Shown one piece after another: positions 732 to 32,000 of a stretch of DNA of 32,000 nt; the first letter of the stretch is position 1; every line of letters starts with the position of its first letter. The notes under the pieces were generated by a model that ran no database searches, was not told where the DNA came from, and was given only the letters and a program-made list of their open reading frames with translations. This DNA is from Candidatus Micrarchaeota archaeon. GTDB lineage: Archaea; B1Sed10-29; JAJSAI01. Both the position numbers and the translations under genes were made by a program. The stretch spans positions 28,614 to 60,613 of the forward strand of contig CAZVAJ010000004.1 in the NCBI GenBank assembly GCA_964625085.1, given 5' to 3'.

Positions 732-1231
732 CAAGCGAAAAAAGCCGGGCAGGATGGTACTTTCTTATTACAGTAGTTTTACTGTACTTGCTGGTGTTCA
801 CATTCTCTCCAGAAACTGGCTCGAACGCGGTTTTGTTCACTGGCAGTATATTCGTACAGCTGATTCCAATGATCCTGCTGATAATAGGCCTGACTGCCCT
901 GATGAACTACTACGTGAAACCAAAAACTCTCGTAAACCACATGGGCAAAGGCTCTGGTATAAAAGGGTGGATTATAGCAACAGCATCAGGAATTATTTCA
1001 ACAGGACCCATTTACATGTGGTATCCTCTGCTTAGCGAACTAAAAAACCATGGTGTCAGGAACGCGTTAATCGCAAGCTTCCTGTACAACAGAGCAGTAA
1101 AAATCCCTTTACTACCCCTGCTTGTGTTCTACTTCGGCGTGAAGTATGCCATGGTACTGACTATAGTAACCGTCTCATTGTCAATTATCGCAGGCTGGCT
1201 AACCGAAAAAATAATAGAGGTGATAAAATGA
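728..1231 (+). CDS. Predicted permease, C-terminal half of the split permease
   Basis: The in-frame ATG at 728 ([17 protein letters not shown]...) overlaps the upstream stop (ATGA). The product is hydrophobic, about 167 aa. The track ORF 413..1231 extends upstream only as an out-of-frame read through the previous gene. Confidence 0.65.
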   Translation: MTSEKSRAGWYFLITVVLLYLLVFTFSPETGSNAVLFTGSIFVQLIPMILLIIGLTALMNYYVKPKTLVNHMGKGSGIKGWIIATASGIISTGPIYMWYPLLSELKNHGVRNALIASFLYNRAVKIPLLPLLVFYFGVKYAMVLTIVTVSLSIIAGWLTEKIIEVIK

Positions 1232-20787: not shown

Positions 20788-20863
20788 AAGAGAAAAAAAG
20801 GAAACAATGTATTAAAAACGTTCCAGTCAGAAGCCCTGCACCATAAGAAGAACAGAGGGTAAT

Positions 20864-20873
20864 GTTTTTAAAC
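20864..20873 (+). promoter_or_regulatory. TATA-like box (GTTTTTAAAC) for the 5S rRNA gene
   Basis: The box is centred about 27 nt upstream of the inferred 5S 5' end. The same GTTTTTAA core occurs upstream of the divergent HARP gene (20811-20819 on the minus strand) and at 8463-8472. Confidence 0.5.
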
Positions 20874-20894
20874 CATCTGGTGCAGAATATTCTT

Positions 20895-21014
20895 TGCTCG
20901 GCGGCCACAGCGGGCGGGAAACACCCGGTCTCTTTCCGAACCCGGAAGTTAAGCCGTCCAGCGATCTTGTGTGTACTGCCCTCTTGGGCGGGAAAGCAAG
21001 GACGCTGCCGAGCA
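20895..21014 (+). rRNA. 5S ribosomal RNA (archaeal type)
   Basis: The terminal helix pairs GCUCGGCGG with CUGCCGAGC. The conserved CCGAACCCGGAAGUUAAGC and GUACUGCC elements are present. About 120 nt. The ends are approximate to +/-2 nt. Confidence 0.95.
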
Positions 21015-21015
21015 C

Positions 21016-21020
21016 TTTTT
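21016..21020 (+). terminator. Oligo-T tract directly after the 5S rRNA (archaeal intrinsic terminator signal)
   Basis: A TTTTT run begins 2 nt after the 3' strand of the 5S terminal helix. Confidence 0.4.
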
Positions 21021-21023
21021 GCT

Positions 21024-21854
21024 TTACACCCCGTACTTTTTTTTCACTTGCTTCCAATCTGGAATAAGCTTAAGCCTGTCTTTCCTCAGCTTTTTGTACT
21101 CTTCCACAGTCAGCCCTGCTGCCTCTGCCCTTTTAGTGACAGCACGCGTAATTGCTTCAGGAGGTTCAAAAAATTCTTTTGCGTACTCTCTTATGCCCTT
21201 GTCCCAGTATTTTTTGGGGTTTTTCGTCTTTGCTATCTCCTGGACCAACTCTTTTTTGAGCTTTTCAAGCGCAGGGTTTTCAAGGGGACTGTACCCTGCA
21301 AACAGTTCGGAAAGCTCTTCCCCGACCACCTGTTCTTTCACTTGGGCATGAAGCTCCTCTGAACTTATGATGGCAGGCCCGTGAGAAGCAAAAGAACCGC
21401 CGCCCTCCTGGTTTTTTTCCTTCAGGAAATGGTCTGAAAGGCGTCTTACGCCGCTGGCCTTTTTTTCAGGCAGGCGTTTTTTAGTGATTATAATATAGTC
21501 AACATCGCTTTCTGGATGAGCGTAACCTCCTGCTCTGCTTCCACTAACAACAATCCCAATAAAATCTGGACCGAGCTCCTGCTTAAGCTTCTCGTGTAAT
21601 TCAGGAAGATCTTTTAGCATAAGTTTTATTGTCCGGCCTTTATCCCTGCTGAGGATTATAGGAAACTTTCTTGTTCTTCTTATCTCTAATTCGCTTTCAG
21701 CCCGCAGTTCATCTATCTTTTTTCGCACATCGTAGTACTCTTCAGGATTCTTGTACTTTCCAAGAGCAAGGTCTTTTTTGGCCTTGTTCTCGAGCAAGTC
21801 CAGTAAATGCTCCCGTACTTTCATCCCGAACGATTTTCTGGTTTTTTTACGCAT
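21024..21854 (-). CDS. Pol-beta-superfamily (minimal) nucleotidyltransferase-domain protein with helical extensions
   Basis: GIVVSGSRAGGYAHPESDVDYIIIT carries the GS...DxD signature. The start is placed at ATG 21854 (or 21824). The K/R-rich extension to 21962 is the alternative-frame reading of the upstream gene's Glu-rich tail. Confidence 0.65.
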   Translation of the reverse strand: MRKKTRKSFGMKVREHLLDLLENKAKKDLALGKYKNPEEYYDVRKKIDELRAESELEIRRTRKFPIILSRDKGRTIKLMLKDLPELHEKLKQELGPDFIGIVVSGSRAGGYAHPESDVDYIIITKKRLPEKKASGVRRLSDHFLKEKNQEGGGSFASHGPAIISSEELHAQVKEQVVGEELSELFAGYSPLENPALEKLKKELVQEIAKTKNPKKYWDKGIREYAKEFFEPPEAITRAVTKRAEAAGLTVEEYKKLRKDRLKLIPDWKQVKKKYGV

Positions 21855-27584: not shown

Positions 27585-29063
27585 ATGACCAACAAAACAA
27601 AGTATGATAAAATAATGGAAAAAATGCTCAAACGAGCTTTCTTTTACCCCAGTTCTGAAATCTACGGAGGATTCTCAGGCTTGTACGATTACGGGTCAAC
27701 AGGCACCAGGATAAAACTAAAGTGGGAAGATTACTGGCGGAAACATTTCCTTGGGCTTGGGGATTCTTTTTACGAGATCCAGCCCGCGAACATCATGCCA
27801 GAACCGGTATTCGAGGCTTCAGGCCATCTTAAGGAATTCGTGGACCCTCTTGTACAGTGCTCGAAATGCGGGTACTACGAAAGAGCAGACACAATTCTTG
27901 AAGACCAGCTTAAGCAGACGTTTGAAGGAATAACCCCTGAAGAGCTTGACCAGCTCATAAAAAAGAACAAGATCACCTGCCCGAAATGCAAGGGTAGGCT
28001 GAAAGAAGTAACAGTGCTTAATCTGATGTTCAATTTTGACGTTGGAATATTCCATTCTGTGACAAAAGGGTATCTGAGGCCTGAAACTGCACAGGGAGCA
28101 TACGTGTGCTTCAGAAGAGAATACAAAGCAAACAGGGAAAGAATGCCGTTAGGCCTTGCGGTTATTGGGAAAGCGTACCGGAACGAGATATCTCCCCGGC
28201 AGGGACTGTTTAGAATGAGGGAGTTCACGCAGGCAGAACTGCAGATCTTTTTTGATCCTGACAAGATAAACGAGCACCCGCGGTTTGAGGAAGTGAAAGA
28301 CAAAAAGCTCAGGATAGTTCCTGCAAACGAGAGGGACAAGGGCGAGCAACTGCTCTCGTGCCAGGAGCTCGTGGAAAAAGGGTATCCTAAGTTCGCTGTG
28401 CACTATATGGCCAGAGTCCAAGAGTTTTACGAGTCTTTGAAAGTGCCCTTGGAAAAGTTCCGGTTCTACGAGAAGAACGAGCAGGAAAGAGCGTTCTATA
28501 ACCTGCTTCACTTTGATGTTGAAGTTTTTCTTGATTCATTCGGGAAGTACACGGAGCTGGCTGGATTCCACTACAGAGGAGATCATGACCTGAAAGGCCA
28601 TCAGAAGGTTTCAGGAGAGGACATGAGTGTTGTAAAGGAAGGTAAAAGGTTCATTCCGCACGTGCTAGAACTCAGTTTTGGGGTGGACCGGAACGTGTTC
28701 GCCCTCTTTGACATAGGATACAAGGAAGAAGGGAAAAGACAGTGGTTCTCTCTGCCTGCATTTGTTTCCCCGTGGACCGCTGGCATCTACCCGCTGGTTA
28801 AAAGGGACGGGCTTGACAAAAAAGCAAAAGAAATCAAGAACCTGCTTTTAAGAGAAGGTATTGACGTGTTCTATGACGAAAGAGGGTCTGTTGGAAAAAG
28901 GTATGCCCGGGCTGATGAAATAGGCGTAGCGTACGGGATAACGATAGACTATGACACAATGCAGGACGATACTGTGACAATTAGGTTCAGGGACTCAACA
29001 GAACAAGAAAGGGTGAACGTGGCAGAACTTGCTGAAAGAATAAAAAAACTACAAGGCATGTGA
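27585..29063 (+). CDS. glyS: Glycine--tRNA ligase (archaeal/eukaryotic alpha2 type)
   Basis: FFYPSSEIYGG, YLRPETAQG, GKAYRNEISPRQGLFRMREFTQAE (class II motif 2), SFGVDR (motif 3), and a C-terminal anticodon-binding domain. Confidence 0.95.
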   Translation: MTNKTKYDKIMEKMLKRAFFYPSSEIYGGFSGLYDYGSTGTRIKLKWEDYWRKHFLGLGDSFYEIQPANIMPEPVFEASGHLKEFVDPLVQCSKCGYYERADTILEDQLKQTFEGITPEELDQLIKKNKITCPKCKGRLKEVTVLNLMFNFDVGIFHSVTKGYLRPETAQGAYVCFRREYKANRERMPLGLAVIGKAYRNEISPRQGLFRMREFTQAELQIFFDPDKINEHPRFEEVKDKKLRIVPANERDKGEQLLSCQELVEKGYPKFAVHYMARVQEFYESLKVPLEKFRFYEKNEQERAFYNLLHFDVEVFLDSFGKYTELAGFHYRGDHDLKGHQKVSGEDMSVVKEGKRFIPHVLELSFGVDRNVFALFDIGYKEEGKRQWFSLPAFVSPWTAGIYPLVKRDGLDKKAKEIKNLLLREGIDVFYDERGSVGKRYARADEIGVAYGITIDYDTMQDDTVTIRFRDSTEQERVNVAELAERIKKLQGM

Positions 29064-29792
29064 TTCTTCCTGTTCCTTAAGCGCGGTAAGCAGGTCAATT
29101 ATTTCTATTCCTCTGCAGGTTATCTCATAAGGGAACCACTTCAGAGGATGAGACTGGTTAGCCATCCGTGTTATCCTGAGCTTGTGCTTTGCGCCCGAGT
29201 TCATGATCTCTAATGCACTATCACACAAGTAGGAGAGAGTAGTTTCCACCTCATCAGAGTGAACCCCTTCTTCCAAAATGAACAAAGATACTGTATTATG
29301 TTCTTTCAGGACCCCTGTAAACACCTGCATAAACTTGAAAAACCTGCCAGTATCCTCTGATGACTGCAAGAGCACGTCAGTCAGCGAGTCGAACACAACC
29401 CTCCCAGGCTTCTTGCTCCCGAACCCTGCTTCTGAAAGCGCGGTCTTCACAACGTCCGTGATCTCGTTAAAATTGGAAAGGCTGGAGATCTTCAGCATGC
29501 TTTTTGTCCTGCTGGTCCTCCAGGAGTACGCGTCAACAAACACAATCCTTTCCAAGTCCTCTTCCGTGATCTTAAGATCAAAATTCAACAGGGCCTGTTT
29601 ACACTGCTCAAACTTTTCTCCAGTGGAAACAAAAACAACCTTCTCTCCCCTGCGCAAACCCTCTGCCAAAAACTGCCTTGCAAACGTTGTTTTCCCGCAA
29701 CCCGGAGGCCCTACCAAAAGAACTGAAGACGGCAGCATAAAACCTCCTGCAAGAATCTCATCTAACCTTCGGATGCCCGTGGAAATCCTCAA
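29049..29792 (-). CDS. KaiC/RadA-like single-domain ATPase
   Basis: STGIRRLDEILAGG, Walker A GPPGCGKTT, Walker B VVFDSL. The TTG start overlaps the upstream stop (TTGA). The 3' end overlaps glyS by 15 nt, convergently. Confidence 0.82.
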   Translation of the reverse strand: MRISTGIRRLDEILAGGFMLPSSVLLVGPPGCGKTTFARQFLAEGLRRGEKVVFVSTGEKFEQCKQALLNFDLKITEEDLERIVFVDAYSWRTSRTKSMLKISSLSNFNEITDVVKTALSEAGFGSKKPGRVVFDSLTDVLLQSSEDTGRFFKFMQVFTGVLKEHNTVSLFILEEGVHSDEVETTLSYLCDSALEIMNSGAKHKLRITRMANQSHPLKWFPYEITCRGIEIIDLLTALKEQEESHAL

Positions 29793-30445
29793 TCTATCAC
29801 GTCCAAAAGCTTAAGTCTTCTTCCATCATATTCTCCCATGAAAATGCGCCTGGCCTTGTTAGGCAGTCCTGCTTTTATGATAATCTTTTCTTCTGCCCTC
29901 CTGAACAAAATCTCCCCATCTGCTTTCTTCCTGAGAACAGGACTGCCTGGCCCTGTCCTTACCACAAAGACACAAGAAGAACCAAACTCCTTGGCTGTTC
30001 TAGAAAGCCTTGAAACAAACCAAGAAACACTGGTCTTAGAGTAGCTGTTCGTAATCCGGTTAAAAGAATCCATAACAAGAAGCGCTGGAGGAACATCTGC
30101 AGCCTTGAATTCTCTGGCAACCTGGTAGTATAATTCTTTCAGCGTAAGATCCTTCTCCTCAAAATCATACTCGTACAAGTCAAAAAACCGGGCTGTTTCT
30201 TTTTCAAGCAAACTAGCCAAGGCCTTTCTTCCAATAAGCTGCGTGAACATCGGGATCATGTCCGAACTTGGCCTGTCAAGACTAACAAACAGTGCAGGAT
30301 TGCCTCTTCTCACGTTTGACGCGAACATCTTGCTAGAAAAGTATGTTTTCCCAGTATGCTTAGGCCCTGACACCAAAAGAGAAGTTCTAGAAGGAATTCC
30401 TCCAATAGCCCTGTCAATCACCTTGAACCCTGTCCAAAGCCTCAT
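29789..30445 (-). CDS. KaiC/RadA-like single-domain ATPase, divergent paralogue
   Basis: TGFKVIDRAIGG, Walker A SGPKHTGKT, Walker B-like LLVMDSF. It is the first gene of the pair. Confidence 0.72.
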   Translation of the reverse strand: MRLWTGFKVIDRAIGGIPSRTSLLVSGPKHTGKTYFSSKMFASNVRRGNPALFVSLDRPSSDMIPMFTQLIGRKALASLLEKETARFFDLYEYDFEEKDLTLKELYYQVAREFKAADVPPALLVMDSFNRITNSYSKTSVSWFVSRLSRTAKEFGSSCVFVVRTGPGSPVLRKKADGEILFRRAEEKIIIKAGLPNKARRIFMGEYDGRRLKLLDVID

Positions 30446-30560
30446 GCAACCATAAAAGAAAAAGAGTTTAAAAAGGATTTTGTCCTACACGACAAAAAAA
30501 ACCGCAAAATAAAGGAAGAACAATAAAAAAGTAAACCTTTTCCCGGTTCATTCCGGTTGC

Positions 30561-30575
30561 AAAAACCTTATATAC
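30561..30575 (+). promoter_or_regulatory. BRE/TATA-like element (AAAAACCTTATATAC)
   Basis: It lies about 40 nt upstream of ATG 30613 and about 25 nt upstream of the AAAGGAGGTG SD, consistent with a short-leader transcript beginning with the 29-codon ORF. Confidence 0.4.
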
Positions 30576-30612
30576 TTGTTCTGCTAGTTTTAGTTCCAAA
30601 GGAGGTGGCAGT

Positions 30613-30702
30613 ATGAACACAAAAATCTTGGAAAAATACTCTAAGAAAATCAAAATAATAATAGATGCAATGATAAATTGGTCTTGCGGAGATGAGGAAT
30701 AA
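30613..30702 (+). CDS. Candidate 29-aa peptide (MNTKILEKYSKKIKIIIDAMINWSCGDEE)
   Basis: This ORF is not in the supplied track. AAAGGAGGTG (30598-30607) lies 5 nt before the ATG. The stop is 2 nt before the methyltransferase ATG. Whether it is translated is unproven. Confidence 0.3.
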   Translation: MNTKILEKYSKKIKIIIDAMINWSCGDEE

Positions 30703-30704
30703 AC

Positions 30705-31319
30705 ATGAAGAGACTGTACCGCGAGGGTGCAAGGTACTATGAGGACAACCAGCCCAACCCCACGAAAGTATACGAGAACTGGTTGGAGCTCCTGAAGAAG
30801 ACGGATTACACGAGCGTGCTTGACATAGGGTGCGGGCTGGGGGACTTTACTCAAATGCTGCAGGACGAAGGATACGAAGCAGTAGGCATAGACAGCTCAG
30901 AGCAAATGATCCGGGCTGCCAGGAAAAAGCACCCTGAATGCAAGTTCGTGCAAGCGAACGCCGTGGATTACAAGCCCGCGCAAGAAGTAGGGATAATGGC
31001 ATTCACTGTCCTGCCCCACCTTTCCCAAAAAGAGCTTGGAACCCTGTTCAAAAGAATGGGACAAGAAGACTACACCAAAGCATTATGGTTCGACTACCCA
31101 AAGTACGTTAAACAACTGCTGGACAGGGTCACGAGCATGCCAGGAATAGACTTTGTCTTCCACCCCGAGGGCAAGATAGAATACCTCGTGGGAGAATACA
31201 GGGAAGAACTGTGGCTAGTCACTCCCTCCCTCGTGGAAGCCTTAGCAGAAGCCTGCGGGCTCGGTACCCGGATCCTGAAAGAAGGGAGAATAAGGTACTA
31301 CCAGGAGTGTAAAATATGA
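30705..31319 (+). CDS. Class I SAM-dependent methyltransferase
   Basis: Motif I is VLDIGCGLGDF, followed by AVGIDSSEQMI. 204 aa. The gene is noticeably more GC-rich than both neighbours. Confidence 0.85.
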   Translation: MKRLYREGARYYEDNQPNPTKVYENWLELLKKTDYTSVLDIGCGLGDFTQMLQDEGYEAVGIDSSEQMIRAARKKHPECKFVQANAVDYKPAQEVGIMAFTVLPHLSQKELGTLFKRMGQEDYTKALWFDYPKYVKQLLDRVTSMPGIDFVFHPEGKIEYLVGEYREELWLVTPSLVEALAEACGLGTRILKEGRIRYYQECKI

Positions 31320-32000
31320 TACTGGATATTGCGATAACTAGCACATGTAACCTAAACTGTAAACATTGTTACCAGGGAAAACAAGTAAAGCAGGAGAGAT
31401 TTGTCCTGCCTTATTACAAGATAGAAGAAATTGTCCTTGACGTCATGAATGAATTCAAAAATAACAAGATAATAATCACGGGAGGAGAACCATTCACTCA
31501 CCCTGAAATAAACAAAATTCTTGAGTTTCTCAAAAAACGCCCAGAAGCCAAAATTGTAGTTATGACCAACGGAACAAAGTTGCCTGAAAAGGCTTTTGAG
31601 CTTCAGAACGTAGAGTACTCCATATCTCTGGATGGCCCTAAAGAAGTTCATGAAAAGATAAGAGGAAAAGGCACGTATGAAAAAACTTTGAAGAACATCC
31701 AGAAAATAAAAGAAAAGACTGGGGCTAAAGTAGAAGTGAAAACTATAATCACCCCCGAACTAGAAAAGGACGCTGTTCTAGAAAAGTTCTTATCTGATCT
31801 TGTAAAAGTAGGCGTGGACGAACTTGTGTTCAATAATGTGTTCTACCAAGGCAATGCGACAAACTTGAAATGGGTGGCAGAAACCAAACAACCCTTACAA
31901 AAGCAAAGAAAACCATACTGCCATGCTGGGGAAGATAGAGTGGCTGTAAACTTTGATGGAGTAGTGTACCCTTGCCACTTTTTCAGAAGCATTAATATGC
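31316..32000 (+). CDS. Radical SAM enzyme, probably SPASM/twitch subfamily (3' end outside window)
   Basis: The frame is open from ATG 31316 (an ATGA overlap) to the window end; I read it by hand and found no stop. CNLNCKHC (CxxxCxxC) sits at residues 11-18, followed by IIITGGEP and SISLDG. A Cys-rich auxiliary region (PYCHAGE...VYPCHFF) begins at the edge. Confidence 0.85.
   Translation, partial: MILDIAITSTCNLNCKHCYQGKQVKQERFVLPYYKIEEIVLDVMNEFKNNKIIITGGEPFTHPEINKILEFLKKRPEAKIVVMTNGTKLPEKAFELQNVEYSISLDGPKEVHEKIRGKGTYEKTLKNIQKIKEKTGAKVEVKTIITPELEKDAVLEKFLSDLVKVGVDELVFNNVFYQGNATNLKWVAETKQPLQKQRKPYCHAGEDRVAVNFDGVVYPCHFFRSINM

What the first reader, a model, noticed from the sequence alone, without database searches (positions are those of the whole stretch)
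30561..32000. SD-led 29-codon ORF, methyltransferase and radical SAM/SPASM-type enzyme: candidate peptide-modification (RiPP-like) cassette
A BRE/TATA-like box (30561-30575) and one of the strongest SD motifs in the window (AAAGGAGGTG) precede a 29-codon ORF, MNTKILEKYSKKIKIIIDAMINWSCGDEE. That ORF ends 2 nt before a SAM methyltransferase. The methyltransferase stop overlaps (ATGA) the start of a radical SAM enzyme with CxxxCxxC and the beginning of a C-terminal Cys-rich auxiliary-cluster region. The peptide has an amphipathic leader-like N-terminal part and a short C-terminal W-S-C-G-D-E-E. Its single Cys lies four residues before a Glu, the same Cys-x3-acidic spacing used by thioether-forming SPASM maturases of the ranthipeptide type. 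There are three caveats. The radical SAM motif starts at residue 11, so no N-terminal RRE/PqqD-like domain is visible. Short ORFs arise easily in AT-rich DNA. SPASM enzymes also perform non-RiPP chemistry, and the rest of the locus lies beyond the window.
Basis: partly seen in the sequence, partly recalled or inferred. Interest (0 to 1): 0.75.

Follow-up and report, generated by a model that had tools for sequence, protein, structure and literature searches.

The report
Archaeal peptide-modifying radical SAM cassette
A tiny 29-codon gene, a methyltransferase and an iron-sulfur "radical SAM" enzyme form one operon in a DPANN archaeon, and relatives of the enzyme almost always sit beside similar tiny cysteine-ending peptide genes, so this is very probably a cassette that makes a chemically modified peptide of an undescribed family.

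Summary
An SD-led 29-codon ORF (30613-30702) ends 2 nt before a class I SAM methyltransferase (30705-31319), whose stop overlaps (ATGA) a radical SAM gene (31316 onward).

Extending the contig gives a 302-aa radical SAM protein. It has no N-terminal RRE. Its SPASM domain is degenerate: only the three Aux I cysteines remain, and the CxxCx5C block and the last Cys are lost.

The enzyme belongs to a discrete, unnamed clade of about 41 clusters (at least 248 bits in the database search, next hit about 200). No member reaches any NCBIfam cut-off.

In at least 9 distinct lineages of this clade, a 16-60-aa ORF with a Cys near its end lies beside the enzyme. It is conserved within subclades with synonymous changes.

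The window peptide shares two rare features with them:
- the leader pentamer YSKK[IL], found in 0 of 8144 control small ORFs;
- the tail [IVLM]N-x(1-3)-C, found in about 0.5% of control ORFs.

The methyltransferase is orthologous to ones adjacent to the enzyme in three other lineages and resembles the one fused to it in a fourth.

The RiPP reading is therefore supported. The specific Cys-x3-acid (ranthipeptide) idea is not conserved; an upstream Asn...Cys (NxxC here) is the commoner theme. The chemistry remains inferred.

This is a new variant of a known kind.

The parts
30532..30566 (+). 35-nt promoter-proximal element TAAACCTTTTCCCGGTTCATTCCGGTTGCAAAAAC. It contains the direct repeat CCGGTT-N5-CCGGTT. 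A second copy lies just after the radical SAM stop, outside the window.
   Evidence: Read directly. Pattern search gives 1 copy in the window (0 expected) and 2 copies per extended contig. A regulatory role is inferred only.
30568..30574 (+). TATA-like box TTATATA with an A-rich BRE-like stretch just upstream. It lies about 40 nt before the peptide ATG.
   Evidence: Sequence read. The spacing fits an archaeal promoter with a short SD-containing leader. This rests on established knowledge of archaeal promoters and was not tested.
30601..30607 (+). Shine-Dalgarno GGAGGTG, 5 nt upstream of the ATG.
30613..30702 (+). 29-codon precursor-peptide gene MNTKILEKYSKKIKIIIDAMINWSCGDEE. The leader carries YSKKI. 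The C-terminal core carries I-N-W-S-C followed by GDEE.
   Evidence: Gene callers called it on three contigs. An HMM built from 12 peptides of other loci ranks it 3rd of 1346 six-frame segments. The leader pentamer Y[SA]KK[LIVM] occurs in 0 of 8144 control small ORFs. The tail rule [IVLM]N-x1-3-C-x0-4-end occurs in 0.4-0.7% of control ORFs.
30705..31319 (+). Class I SAM-dependent methyltransferase, 204 aa. Accessory tailoring enzyme.
   Evidence: Pfam Methyltransf_25 5e-14. No NCBIfam family reaches its cut-off. It is 29% identical over residues 4-185, including the non-SAM-binding half, to the methyltransferase overlapping the homologous radical SAM gene in L003. It is 35% identical over 71 aa to the methyltransferase domain fused to the radical SAM in L014.
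31316..32000 (+). Radical SAM peptide-maturase-like enzyme. Residues 1-228 of 302 are in the window; the gene ends at window-equivalent 32224. It has CxxxCxxC at residues 11-18, no RRE, and an Aux-I-only twitch-like C-terminal domain.

Best explanation
This is a three-gene operon of a DPANN archaeon that makes a ribosomally synthesised, post-translationally modified peptide.

**Precursor.** The 29-aa product is the precursor. Its Lys-rich N-terminal part (around E-K-Y-S-K-K-I) serves as the recognition or leader segment. The last roughly 10-15 residues (IIIDAMINWSCGDEE) are the core.

**Radical SAM step.** The enzyme has no RRE domain and keeps only one auxiliary Fe-S cluster, Aux I, with three Cys ligands and probably one open site. 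It binds the peptide directly. The proposed sequence of events is:

1. The single Cys25 thiol coordinates the open iron of Aux I.
2. The 5'-deoxyadenosyl radical abstracts a hydrogen from a nearby residue. The best candidate is Asn22 of the N-W-S-C (NxxC) motif. The alternative is Glu29, four residues after the Cys.
3. The carbon radical is captured by the sulfur, giving an intramolecular thioether ring (-2 Da).

**Methyltransferase step.** The methyltransferase then adds one or more methyl groups (+14 Da each). The site is unknown; the acidic C-terminal tail or carboxylate is a guess.

**What is shown and what is inferred.** Shown: gene order, domain content, loss of Aux II, membership of a discrete peptide-associated enzyme clade, the shared peptide features, and linkage or fusion of the methyltransferase to the enzyme. 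Inferred: that the peptide is modified, the thioether chemistry, the acceptor residue, the methylation site, and the biological role of the product.
For: **Operon.** The peptide stop lies 2 nt before the methyltransferase ATG. The methyltransferase and radical SAM genes overlap by ATGA. SD-like motifs precede all three genes.

**Enzyme clade.** The profile search gives about 41 clusters at 248 bits or more, then a gap to about 200 bits. The local HMM puts the family at 274 bits or more, against 193 or less for other SPASM enzymes.

**Peptides beside clade members.**
- L007...DIKILVDCNITGGGVCGCD*.
- L014...SKLNNC*.
- L096/L097: two peptides flanking the enzyme...VNTKCNGGGCDEDIDEWI* and ...INTKVNGDEGYCKDLMF*, followed by an MFS transporter.
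- L098...KLNTKMNGC*.
- L100/L015...MNMGDCSCEPTPEI*.
- L003, L116 and L114: MVIVGFTSTINTASCD*, MVIVTFTSTINASDCD* and MVVVYFTSTVNAASCE*. DNA conservation is confined to the 16 codons, with synonymous third-position changes.
- L118-L121 and L104...EEYSKKL...VNKNFSTSTC* and similar.
- L123...YTSFTTSSCC....

**Window peptide versus controls.**
- Ranks 3 of 1346 against an HMM built from the other peptides.
- Leader pentamer in 0 of 8144 control ORFs, or 3e-6 per residue.
- Tail rule in about 0.5% of control ORFs.
- 6 of 16 family loci have a tail-rule ORF within 250 nt, against 5 of 77 control loci.

**Methyltransferase link.** Adjacent in the window, L003, L114 and L116. Fused in L014.

**Enzyme type.**
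- The PDB profile search puts SkfB first, then CteB and anSME.
- The AF2 model (pLDDT 88.9) matches CteB, SuiB and SkfB best.
- Alignments A1 and A5 show an 18-residue deletion removing CxxCx5C, and Glu in place of the last Cys. The retained Cys align with the C-x12-G-x4-C and final CX3C cysteines. In anSME these are Aux I ligands (Goldman et al. 2013, from my own knowledge).
- A 49%-identical fragment, L101, shows the same loss, so it is not a one-off lesion.

**Chemistry precedents.** NxxcB makes a Cys-to-Asn beta-thioether in NxxC motifs, with the thiol bound to an auxiliary cluster (PMC9389541). SkfB makes a thioether with a single auxiliary cluster (from my own knowledge).
Against: - There is no experimental or transcript evidence.
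- The window-type peptide exists only in one near-clonal population, so purifying selection on it cannot be measured.
- HMM-level similarity of the window peptide to the others is weak: 5.9 bits, and 77 of 2000 composition-preserving shuffles do as well. An HMM of the five most similar-looking peptides gives no signal.
- The rare-motif tests used patterns noticed after looking at the data.
- Peptide cores differ widely between subclades, so one shared chemistry is an assumption. The Asn-Cys spacing varies from 1 to 7 residues.
- No protease, exporter or immunity gene was recognised in the 2.8 kb after the enzyme (only the two large reverse-strand ORFs were run against Pfam).
- Loss of Aux II could mean altered or reduced activity.
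- No ortholog from the assembly carrying the 82%-identical GlyRS appeared in the radical SAM search, and its contig ends before the syntenic position.
- Four of 16 representative clade loci (L099, L102, L103, L117) showed no convincing peptide within 250-500 nt.
Confidence: 0.72

Rival explanations
1. The peptide is a genuine substrate, but the radical SAM enzyme does not make a thioether ring. It might instead epimerise a residue (as EpeE/YydG does), oxidise the Cys to formylglycine or another carbonyl (anSME-like), form a C-C or C-O crosslink, or process the C-terminus as MftC does in mycofactocin. The product could be a cofactor or signal rather than an antimicrobial.
For: The structural neighbours include the epimerase EpeE, anSME and SuiB as well as CteB and SkfB, at similar E-values. 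Mycofactocin MftC and heme or PQQ enzymes score as well as PapB in NCBIfam, and all are far below their cut-offs. In most relatives the conserved residue lies at or near the very C-terminus, as in MftA and PqqA-type cofactor precursors (from my own knowledge). The window locus has no exporter or protease.
Against: The one residue present in every peptide is Cys. In this enzyme Aux I is left with three Cys ligands, the arrangement that thiol-binding thioether synthases use (CteB and NxxcB; PMC9389541, and my own knowledge). The two best sequence-profile matches in the PDB, SkfB and CteB, are both thioether formers. One relative has an MFS transporter overlapping the second peptide gene, which points to export.
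Confidence: 0.2
2. The 29-codon ORF is a chance ORF, or a purely regulatory upstream ORF. The methyltransferase and radical SAM enzyme would then act together on a non-peptide substrate such as a lipid, cofactor, nucleoside or sugar.
For: Short ORFs are frequent in this 42-47% GC DNA: there are 431 ORFs of 14-60 aa in the window. GGAGGTG occurs at chance frequency. SPASM and twitch enzymes do include non-peptide enzymes such as BtrN, MoaA, AhbC/D, BlsE and GDGT-MAS, which appear lower. The methyltransferase's only PDB or NCBIfam similarities are generic small-molecule methyltransferases. Four clade loci lack an obvious peptide.
Against: Peptide ORFs recur next to clade members on either strand and on either side. 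This excludes a cis-acting upstream ORF: they are divergent in L003, L114 and L116, and downstream in L096 and L100. They show codon-level conservation. The window ORF carries two independently rare family features. It was the pre-specified candidate and ranks 3 of 1346.
Confidence: 0.08

Closest known systems
Ranthipeptide / SCIFF maturases (CteB, PapB; radical SAM/SPASM thioether synthases)
   Same: Radical SAM core with a C-terminal auxiliary-cluster domain. CteB is the best structural match and second in the PDB profile search. PapB is the best NCBIfam model. A small Cys-containing precursor is encoded beside the enzyme. Aux I has three protein Cys ligands, as in CteB (from my own knowledge).
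   Different: The PapB HMM scores 84 bits against a cut-off of 340. There is no N-terminal RRE: the matches begin at residue 92-94 of CteB. Aux II is absent in the window enzyme. The peptide has one Cys rather than six, and the Cys-x3-acid spacing is not conserved in the family.
SkfB (sporulation killing factor maturase; radical SAM with a twitch domain)
   Same: Top PDB sequence-profile match and a high structural match. It makes a thioether with a single auxiliary cluster (from my own knowledge), which shows that an Aux-II-less enzyme can do this chemistry.
   Different: SkfB has an N-terminal RRE-type domain (the match starts at residue 113-114). Its NCBIfam model is far from being reached. 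The precursors are unrelated. The window enzyme's twitch-like state arose by a recent deletion within a full-SPASM clade.
NxxcB / NxxcA (streptococcal RaS-RiPP; Cys-to-Asn beta-thioether in NxxC motifs)
   Same: The window peptide has N22-W-S-C25, an exact NxxC. An Asn 1-5 residues upstream of the Cys recurs in most relatives' peptides. The mechanism, with the thiol bound to an auxiliary cluster, fits the three-Cys Aux I (PMC9389541).
   Different: No sequence relationship to NxxcB was demonstrated here. The Asn-Cys spacing is variable, and the FSTSTC-type peptides lack a nearby Asn. The host is archaeal, there is no Rgg/SHP context, and a methyltransferase is present.
Mycofactocin system (MftA/MftB/MftC)
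   Same: Very short precursor with the reactive residues at the extreme C-terminus. Radical SAM/SPASM maturase. Methyltransferase present in some clusters (from my own knowledge). MftC models give scores similar to the peptide-crosslinking models.
   Different: The MftC HMM is not reached (about 60-85 bits against a cut-off of 265). There are no MftB, D, E or F homologues. The peptide ends in Cys and acidic residues, not Gly-Val-Tyr.

Membership tests
RiPP biosynthetic cassette (generic definition) | A small precursor-peptide gene is encoded next to its modifying enzyme(s). | tested here: met
   Window 30613-30702 directly precedes the methyltransferase and radical SAM genes. Analogous ORFs lie beside clade members in at least 9 lineages.
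RiPP biosynthetic cassette (generic definition) | The precursor is conserved as a coding sequence, with leader and core organisation. | tested here: inconclusive
   Codon-level conservation is shown for the L003, L116 and L114 peptides. A shared leader motif Y[SA]KK[LI] and a Cys tail are shared with the window peptide. However, the window peptide's own copies are identical, and its HMM similarity is weak.
RiPP biosynthetic cassette (generic definition) | Leader protease and/or exporter in the cluster. | tested here: not met
   None was recognised in the 2.8 kb downstream on L013 or upstream in the window. Only the two large reverse-strand ORFs there were run against Pfam: one has no Pfam hit and the other carries a FIST domain. 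An MFS transporter is present in the relative L096. This feature is not obligatory for RiPPs.
RiPP biosynthetic cassette (generic definition) | The peptide is actually modified. | not testable with these tools
   This needs co-expression and mass spectrometry.
Radical SAM superfamily | CxxxCxxC cluster motif, GGE SAM-binding motif and a partial TIM-barrel fold. | tested here: met
   C11, C15 and C18, plus G56-G57-E58. Pfam PF04055 2e-24. The AF2 model has pLDDT 88.9 and radical SAM structural neighbours.
SPASM-domain radical SAM (two auxiliary clusters) | Seven-Cys motif C-x9-15-G-x4-C ... C-x2-C-x5-C-x3-C ... C. | tested here: not met
   Only C202-x12-G-x4-C220 and C263 remain. An 18-residue deletion removes CxxCx5C, and the last Cys is Glu. 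Pfam SPASM matches positions 1-46 of 67 only. Relatives P0125 and P0003-P0007 have the full motif.
Twitch-domain radical SAM | Truncated SPASM binding a single auxiliary cluster. | tested here: inconclusive
   The Cys pattern fits one cluster with three protein ligands. The NCBIfam N_Twi_rSAM model scores 65 bits against a cut-off of 170. Cluster content needs spectroscopy.
Ranthipeptide maturase (PapB/CteB) | Family HMM above the curated cut-off. | tested here: not met
   NF047865 PapB scores 83.8 bits against a cut-off of 340. Relatives score 61-96 bits.
Ranthipeptide maturase (PapB/CteB) | N-terminal RRE (PqqD-like) leader-binding domain. | tested here: not met
   The radical SAM motif starts at residue 11. 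Alignments to CteB and SkfB begin at their residues 92-114. No PqqD Pfam hit.
Ranthipeptide maturase (PapB/CteB) | Precursor with multiple Cys in Cys-x3-Asp/Glu or SCIFF-type motifs. | tested here: not met
   The peptide has a single Cys. C25-x3-E29 exists in the window peptide but is absent in relatives ending CD*, C* or CE*.
NxxC-type beta-thioether RaS-RiPP | NxxC motif in the precursor. | tested here: met
   N22-W-S-C25. The spacing is variable in relatives.
NxxC-type beta-thioether RaS-RiPP | Enzyme homologous to NxxcB, with a Cys-Asn C-beta thioether product. | not tested
   No NxxcB model appeared among the 25 best NCBIfam families shown. There is no solved structure. The product is unknown.
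Cofactor or heme maturation radical SAMs (AhbC/D, NirJ, MoaA, PqqE, MftC) and sulfatase maturase | Family HMM above the curated cut-off. | tested here: not met
   All score 60-85 bits against cut-offs of 265-650.

The most novel reading that the evidence does not exclude
The window holds a minimal member of a previously undescribed RiPP class that spans DPANN and other archaea as well as bacteria. The class is defined by an RRE-less radical SAM clade and ultra-short precursors (16-60 aa, some with essentially no leader) whose reactive Cys sits at or near the C-terminus. In this lineage the enzyme has discarded Aux II and works with one auxiliary cluster and a partner methyltransferase. The product would be a methylated, thioether-bridged (Cys-Asn) peptide, and the first radical-SAM RiPP chemistry from a DPANN archaeon.
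Probability: 0.35. Interest if true: 0.7.

Novelty: new variant of a known kind. Interest (0 to 1): 0.6.

Why it matters
Radical SAM RiPP clusters are predicted in archaea, including DPANN lineages, but according to a 2025 survey (PMC12144867) the few archaeal RiPP products characterised so far are lanthipeptides.

This locus and its relatives define a compact, testable system of three genes. Some relatives have 16-aa precursors, and the enzymes lack an RRE. A natural series runs from full SPASM to Aux-I-only enzymes, and a natural enzyme-methyltransferase fusion exists.

The system could show:
- how leader-independent or RRE-independent substrate recognition works;
- what Aux II contributes to thioether-type chemistry;
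- what modified peptides do for host-dependent, genome-reduced archaea.

It is not a new principle. It extends a known kind of system into an uncurated enzyme clade and peptide family.

Tried and rejected
1. **Family assignment by curated HMMs.** No NCBIfam or Pfam family beyond the generic Radical_SAM, SPASM and methyltransferase domains was found for the enzyme, the methyltransferase or any peptide.

2. **Selection test on the window peptide.** This was impossible. L001, L002 and L013 are 99.8-100% identical to the window.

3. **Synteny in the sister genome.** The contig L122 carrying the 82%-identical GlyRS (P0222, GCA_024274695.1) stops inside the KaiC-like gene, before the cassette position.

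4. **HMM of the five peptides that looked most like the window peptide (group A).** It gave no signal: rank 214 of 1346, with 928 of 2000 shuffles doing as well. I report it as a failed exploratory test. The 12-peptide HMM gives rank 3 of 1346 but only p of about 0.04 against composition-preserving shuffles.

5. **L096 versus L097 for Ka/Ks.** They are too similar (95-98% identity). The peptide ORFs have 1 change in 132 nt and 2 changes in 126 nt, against about 15% divergence in part of the upstream spacer.

6. **P0015 as a possible closer relative.** Rejected. It has only generic N-terminal radical SAM similarity.

7. **P0149 / L117 (520 aa, 60% GC).** It has a long N-terminal extension and no convincing peptide.

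8. **Methyltransferase substrate from PDB similarity.** Only the generic SAM-binding region matches.

9. **Cis-regulatory upstream ORF.** Rejected because the peptides are divergent or downstream in several relatives.

10. **First script run for the shuffle test.** It failed silently because of incompatible hmmsearch options and was repeated correctly.
Full report
**1. Observation**

- A TTATATA box lies at 30568-30574, behind an A-rich stretch.
- GGAGGTG lies at 30601-30607, 5 nt before an ATG at 30613.
- That ATG opens a 29-codon ORF, MNTKILEKYSKKIKIIIDAMINWSCGDEE, with its stop at 30700-30702.
- Two bases later a 204-aa class I SAM methyltransferase begins (30705-31319; Pfam Methyltransf_25 5e-14).
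- Its TGA overlaps, as ATGA, the start of a radical SAM gene (31316 onward; PF04055 1e-24), which has C11-x3-C15-x2-C18.
- The exact 7-mer GGAGGTG occurs three times in the window, which is the chance expectation. The SD alone is therefore not evidence. SD-like purine runs also precede the other two genes, which fits a polycistronic unit.

**2. Extending the locus**

The methyltransferase sequence is found on three public contigs from the same population. They are 99.8-99.97% identical to the window.

- L001 and L013 complete the radical SAM gene at 302 aa. Its stop is at window-equivalent 32224.
- L013 adds 2.8 kb beyond the gene.
- Gene callers called the 29-aa ORF on all three contigs.
- Downstream there is no recognisable protease, transporter or RRE protein. 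What follows is an odd A+C-rich stretch and two reverse-strand genes, one with no Pfam hit and one with a FIST domain. Only those two large ORFs were run against Pfam.
- The host is a DPANN archaeon. The neighbouring GlyRS has its best named relatives in Micrarchaeota and Aenigmarchaeota MAGs, at 57-59% identity.

**3. The enzyme**

The full protein matches Pfam SPASM only over model positions 1-46 of 67. It reaches no NCBIfam cut-off. The best model is PapB at 84 bits against a cut-off of 340. Heme, NirJ, MoaA and sulfatase-type models are equally far below their cut-offs.

Its relatives are rare:
- one at 42% identity (P0002/P0125);
- one at 39% (P0003);
- three at 34-35%;
- beyond these, only generic SPASM proteins.

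A profile of 14 members recovers about 41 clusters at 248 bits or more, followed by a gap to about 200 bits. A local HMM separates the family (274 bits or more) from 77 other SPASM loci (193 bits or less). None of the members carries a name.

Alignment shows that relatives have the full seven-Cys SPASM motif. The window protein has an 18-residue deletion that removes CxxCx5C, and it has Glu in place of the final Cys. It keeps C202-x12-G-x4-C220 and C263. C263 aligns with the last Cys of CX3C. By the anSME structure (Goldman et al. 2013, from my own knowledge) these are the Aux I ligands. The enzyme should therefore carry one auxiliary cluster with three protein ligands, which is a twitch-like state.

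A 49%-identical fragment from another metagenome (L101) shows the same loss. The invariant catalytic residues are intact, and the AF2 model is confident (pLDDT 88.9). The gene therefore looks functional.

The nearest solved structures are peptide maturases:
- SkfB and CteB by sequence profile;
- CteB, SuiB and SkfB, then BlsE, EpeE and anSME, by fold.

Those matches start at residues 92-114 of SkfB and CteB. The N-terminal RRE domain of those enzymes has no counterpart here or elsewhere in the clade.

**4. Is the small ORF a gene?**

The window copies are identical, so the test has to come from relatives. Small ORFs with a Cys at or near the C-terminus lie beside clade enzymes in at least nine distinct lineages.

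| Locus | Position relative to the enzyme | Peptide |
|---|---|---|
| L007 (AT-rich archaeon, 42% enzyme) | Upstream | MGTKKKNLLNKGEFITKINRLNQQNDIKILVDCNITGGGVCGCD |
| L014 (Ca. Nanoarchaeia) | Upstream | MKKSKQPANQANIDVEEINEEEKSEGITSKLNNC |
| L096/L097 | One on each side | ...DVEINTKVNGDEGYCKDLMF and ...VEVNTKCNGGGCDEDIDEWI; the second overlaps an MFS transporter gene |
| L098 | Upstream | MKKRKQKSRKIRIKLNTKMNGC |
| L100/L015 | Downstream | ...HVSWTMNMGDCSCEPTPEI |
| L118-L120, L121, L104 | Upstream | MEKKISKEEYSKKLLNAIEKKNKNKKAIVNKNFSTSTC and two variants |
| L123 | Upstream | ...STYLNDLVKALEKAGSKVTMYTSFTTSSCC... |
| L003, L116, L114 (three diverged archaeal loci) | Divergently transcribed, upstream | MVIVGFTSTINTASCD, MVIVTFTSTINASDCD, MVVVYFTSTVNAASCE |

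In the DNA alignment of the last group, conservation is confined to the 16 codons. The variation there is largely synonymous third-position change (GTG/GTA/GTT, ACT/ACG, TCT/TCC, ATT/ATA, AAC/AAT). The flanks do not align. That is a coding signature.

The peptide genes occur upstream, downstream and on the opposite strand, so a cis-acting regulatory upstream ORF is excluded for the family.

**5. Does the window ORF belong to this peptide family?**

- *HMM test.* An HMM built from the 12 other peptides ranks the pre-specified ORF 3rd among 1346 six-frame segments of the window. The score is only 5.9 bits, and 77 of 2000 composition-preserving shuffles equal it. A second HMM, from the five most similar-looking peptides, gave nothing.
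- *Tail feature.* The tail [IVLM]-N-x(1-3)-C-x(0-4)-end is seen in L003, L116, L114, L098 and L014, and here as I-N-W-S-C-GDEE. It occurs in 0.4-0.7% of random 14-60-aa ORFs. Within 250 nt of the enzyme it occurs in 6 of 16 family loci, against 5 of 77 control SPASM loci.
- *Leader feature.* The leader pentamer Y-[SA]-K-K-[LIVM] reads YSKKL, YAKKL and YAKKL in L118, L121 and L104, and YSKKI here. It occurs in 0 of 8144 control small ORFs, and in 4 of 1.25 million six-frame residues. In the window it occurs once, in the candidate.

Both patterns were noticed after looking at the data, so the nominal probabilities are optimistic. Even so, they are independent of each other and of the ORF's operon position. 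I conclude that the ORF is very probably a real member of the family.

**6. The methyltransferase**

- It is 29% identical over almost its whole length, including the half outside the SAM-binding fold, to the methyltransferase that overlaps the radical SAM gene in L003.
- The same pair, in the order radical SAM then methyltransferase, occurs in L114 and L116.
- In Ca. Nanoarchaeia L014 the two are fused in one 591-aa protein: Radical_SAM at residues 71-206, SPASM at 270-331 and Methyltransf_25 at 414-496.
- Other members (L007, L096, L098 and the bacterial multi-radical-SAM clusters) lack it.

It is therefore a functionally linked but optional tailoring enzyme. Its substrate atom cannot be read from sequence, because only generic matches appear.

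**7. Mechanism (inferred)**

The only residue common to all the peptides is Cys. The window enzyme retains precisely a three-Cys Aux I.

In NxxcB, and by structure in CteB, the substrate thiol binds an auxiliary cluster. The 5'-deoxyadenosyl radical abstracts a hydrogen from the acceptor residue, and the carbon radical attacks the sulfur (PMC9389541; CteB from my own knowledge). SkfB shows that one auxiliary cluster suffices (from my own knowledge).

The window peptide has an exact NxxC (N22-W-S-C25), and most relatives have an Asn 1-5 residues before the Cys. I therefore favour a Cys25-Asn22 thioether.

It is possible for this peptide, but it is not conserved: relatives end CD*, CE* and C*.

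Other chemistries, such as epimerisation, Cys oxidation or C-terminal processing, are not excluded.

**8. Comparison with known systems and novelty**

The system works like a ranthipeptide, sactipeptide or NxxC-type radical SAM RiPP system. It fails the membership tests of each named family: the HMM cut-offs, the RRE, the two-cluster SPASM domain and the multi-Cys precursor.

Radical-SAM RiPP clusters have been predicted bioinformatically in archaea, including DPANN. According to PMC12144867, the few archaeal RiPP products characterised so far are lanthipeptides. Literature searches for DPANN, RiPP and radical SAM found no description of this clade.

I rate it a new variant of a known kind, for four reasons:
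- an uncurated enzyme clade with its own precursor family;
- no RRE;
- very short precursors;
- in this lineage, loss of Aux II and a partner methyltransferase.

**9. Limits**

- There is no expression or product evidence.
- The window-type peptide is known from one population only.
- The contig carrying the 82%-identical GlyRS ends before the syntenic site, and no ortholog from that assembly appeared in the radical SAM search. The cassette therefore looks accessory.
- Four clade loci showed no obvious peptide.

Noticed in passing
window 30532-30566; second copy at L001 11521-11555 and L013 8259-8293 (window-equivalent 32225-32259): A 35-nt element, TAAACCTTTTCCCGGTT[C/T]ATTCCGGTTGCAAAAAC, containing the direct repeat CCGGTT-N5-CCGGTT. 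It sits immediately upstream of a TATA-like box at two promoters: the cassette's own, and that of the next downstream region. No other copy occurs in the window or in any fetched locus. It may be a shared transcription-factor site.
   Followed up: partly
L013 8325-9022 and L001 11587-12076 (just beyond the window end): A strongly A+C-rich plus-strand stretch. The ATG opens only MLTKKTFS*. After an A7 run, the -1 frame reads a signal-peptide-like KNLLLTLTLLLTLLLNTGLAQEPWW..., and a later frame ends in a hydrophobic tail ...LLGTLLINMLMMLILFA*. The same A7 is present in two assemblies. This could be a pseudogene, slippage on the poly-A run, or several small ORFs.
   Followed up: partly
L014 3806-5581 (Ca. 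Nanoarchaeia STB_88, JAQTVM010000005.1): A natural fusion of a clade radical SAM/SPASM enzyme with a C-terminal class I methyltransferase (591 aa). A 34-aa ORF ending ...SKLNNC* lies 11 nt upstream.
   Followed up: yes
L118-L121, L102-L104, L123: Bacterial-type clusters in which a ...F(S/T)(S/T)(S/T)..C peptide gene is followed by two tandem paralogues of the clade enzyme. In L118-L121 a third, larger radical SAM enzyme follows them. A GNAT acetyltransferase lies downstream in L118-L121 and L123. Some clusters also have an adenosine-deaminase-like gene.
   Followed up: partly
L003 5852-5902 (-), L116 768-818 (-), L114 about 798-848 (-): 16-codon peptide genes (MVIVxFTSTINxxxC[DE]) with essentially no leader, divergently transcribed from radical SAM-methyltransferase operons. 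They were not called by the gene callers used for these contigs.
   Followed up: yes
window 20897-21013 (+): A 5S rRNA gene (Rfam RF00001, 82.8 bits), overlapped by a mechanical 166-aa ORF at 20862-21362. No tRNA genes occur in the window.
   Followed up: no
window 29049-30445 (-): Two tandem KaiC/RecA-like P-loop ATPase genes (247 and 218 aa) are divergent from the cassette. The same GlyRS-KaiC arrangement is kept in the sister genome contig L122, so they belong to the conserved backbone rather than to the cassette.
   Followed up: partly
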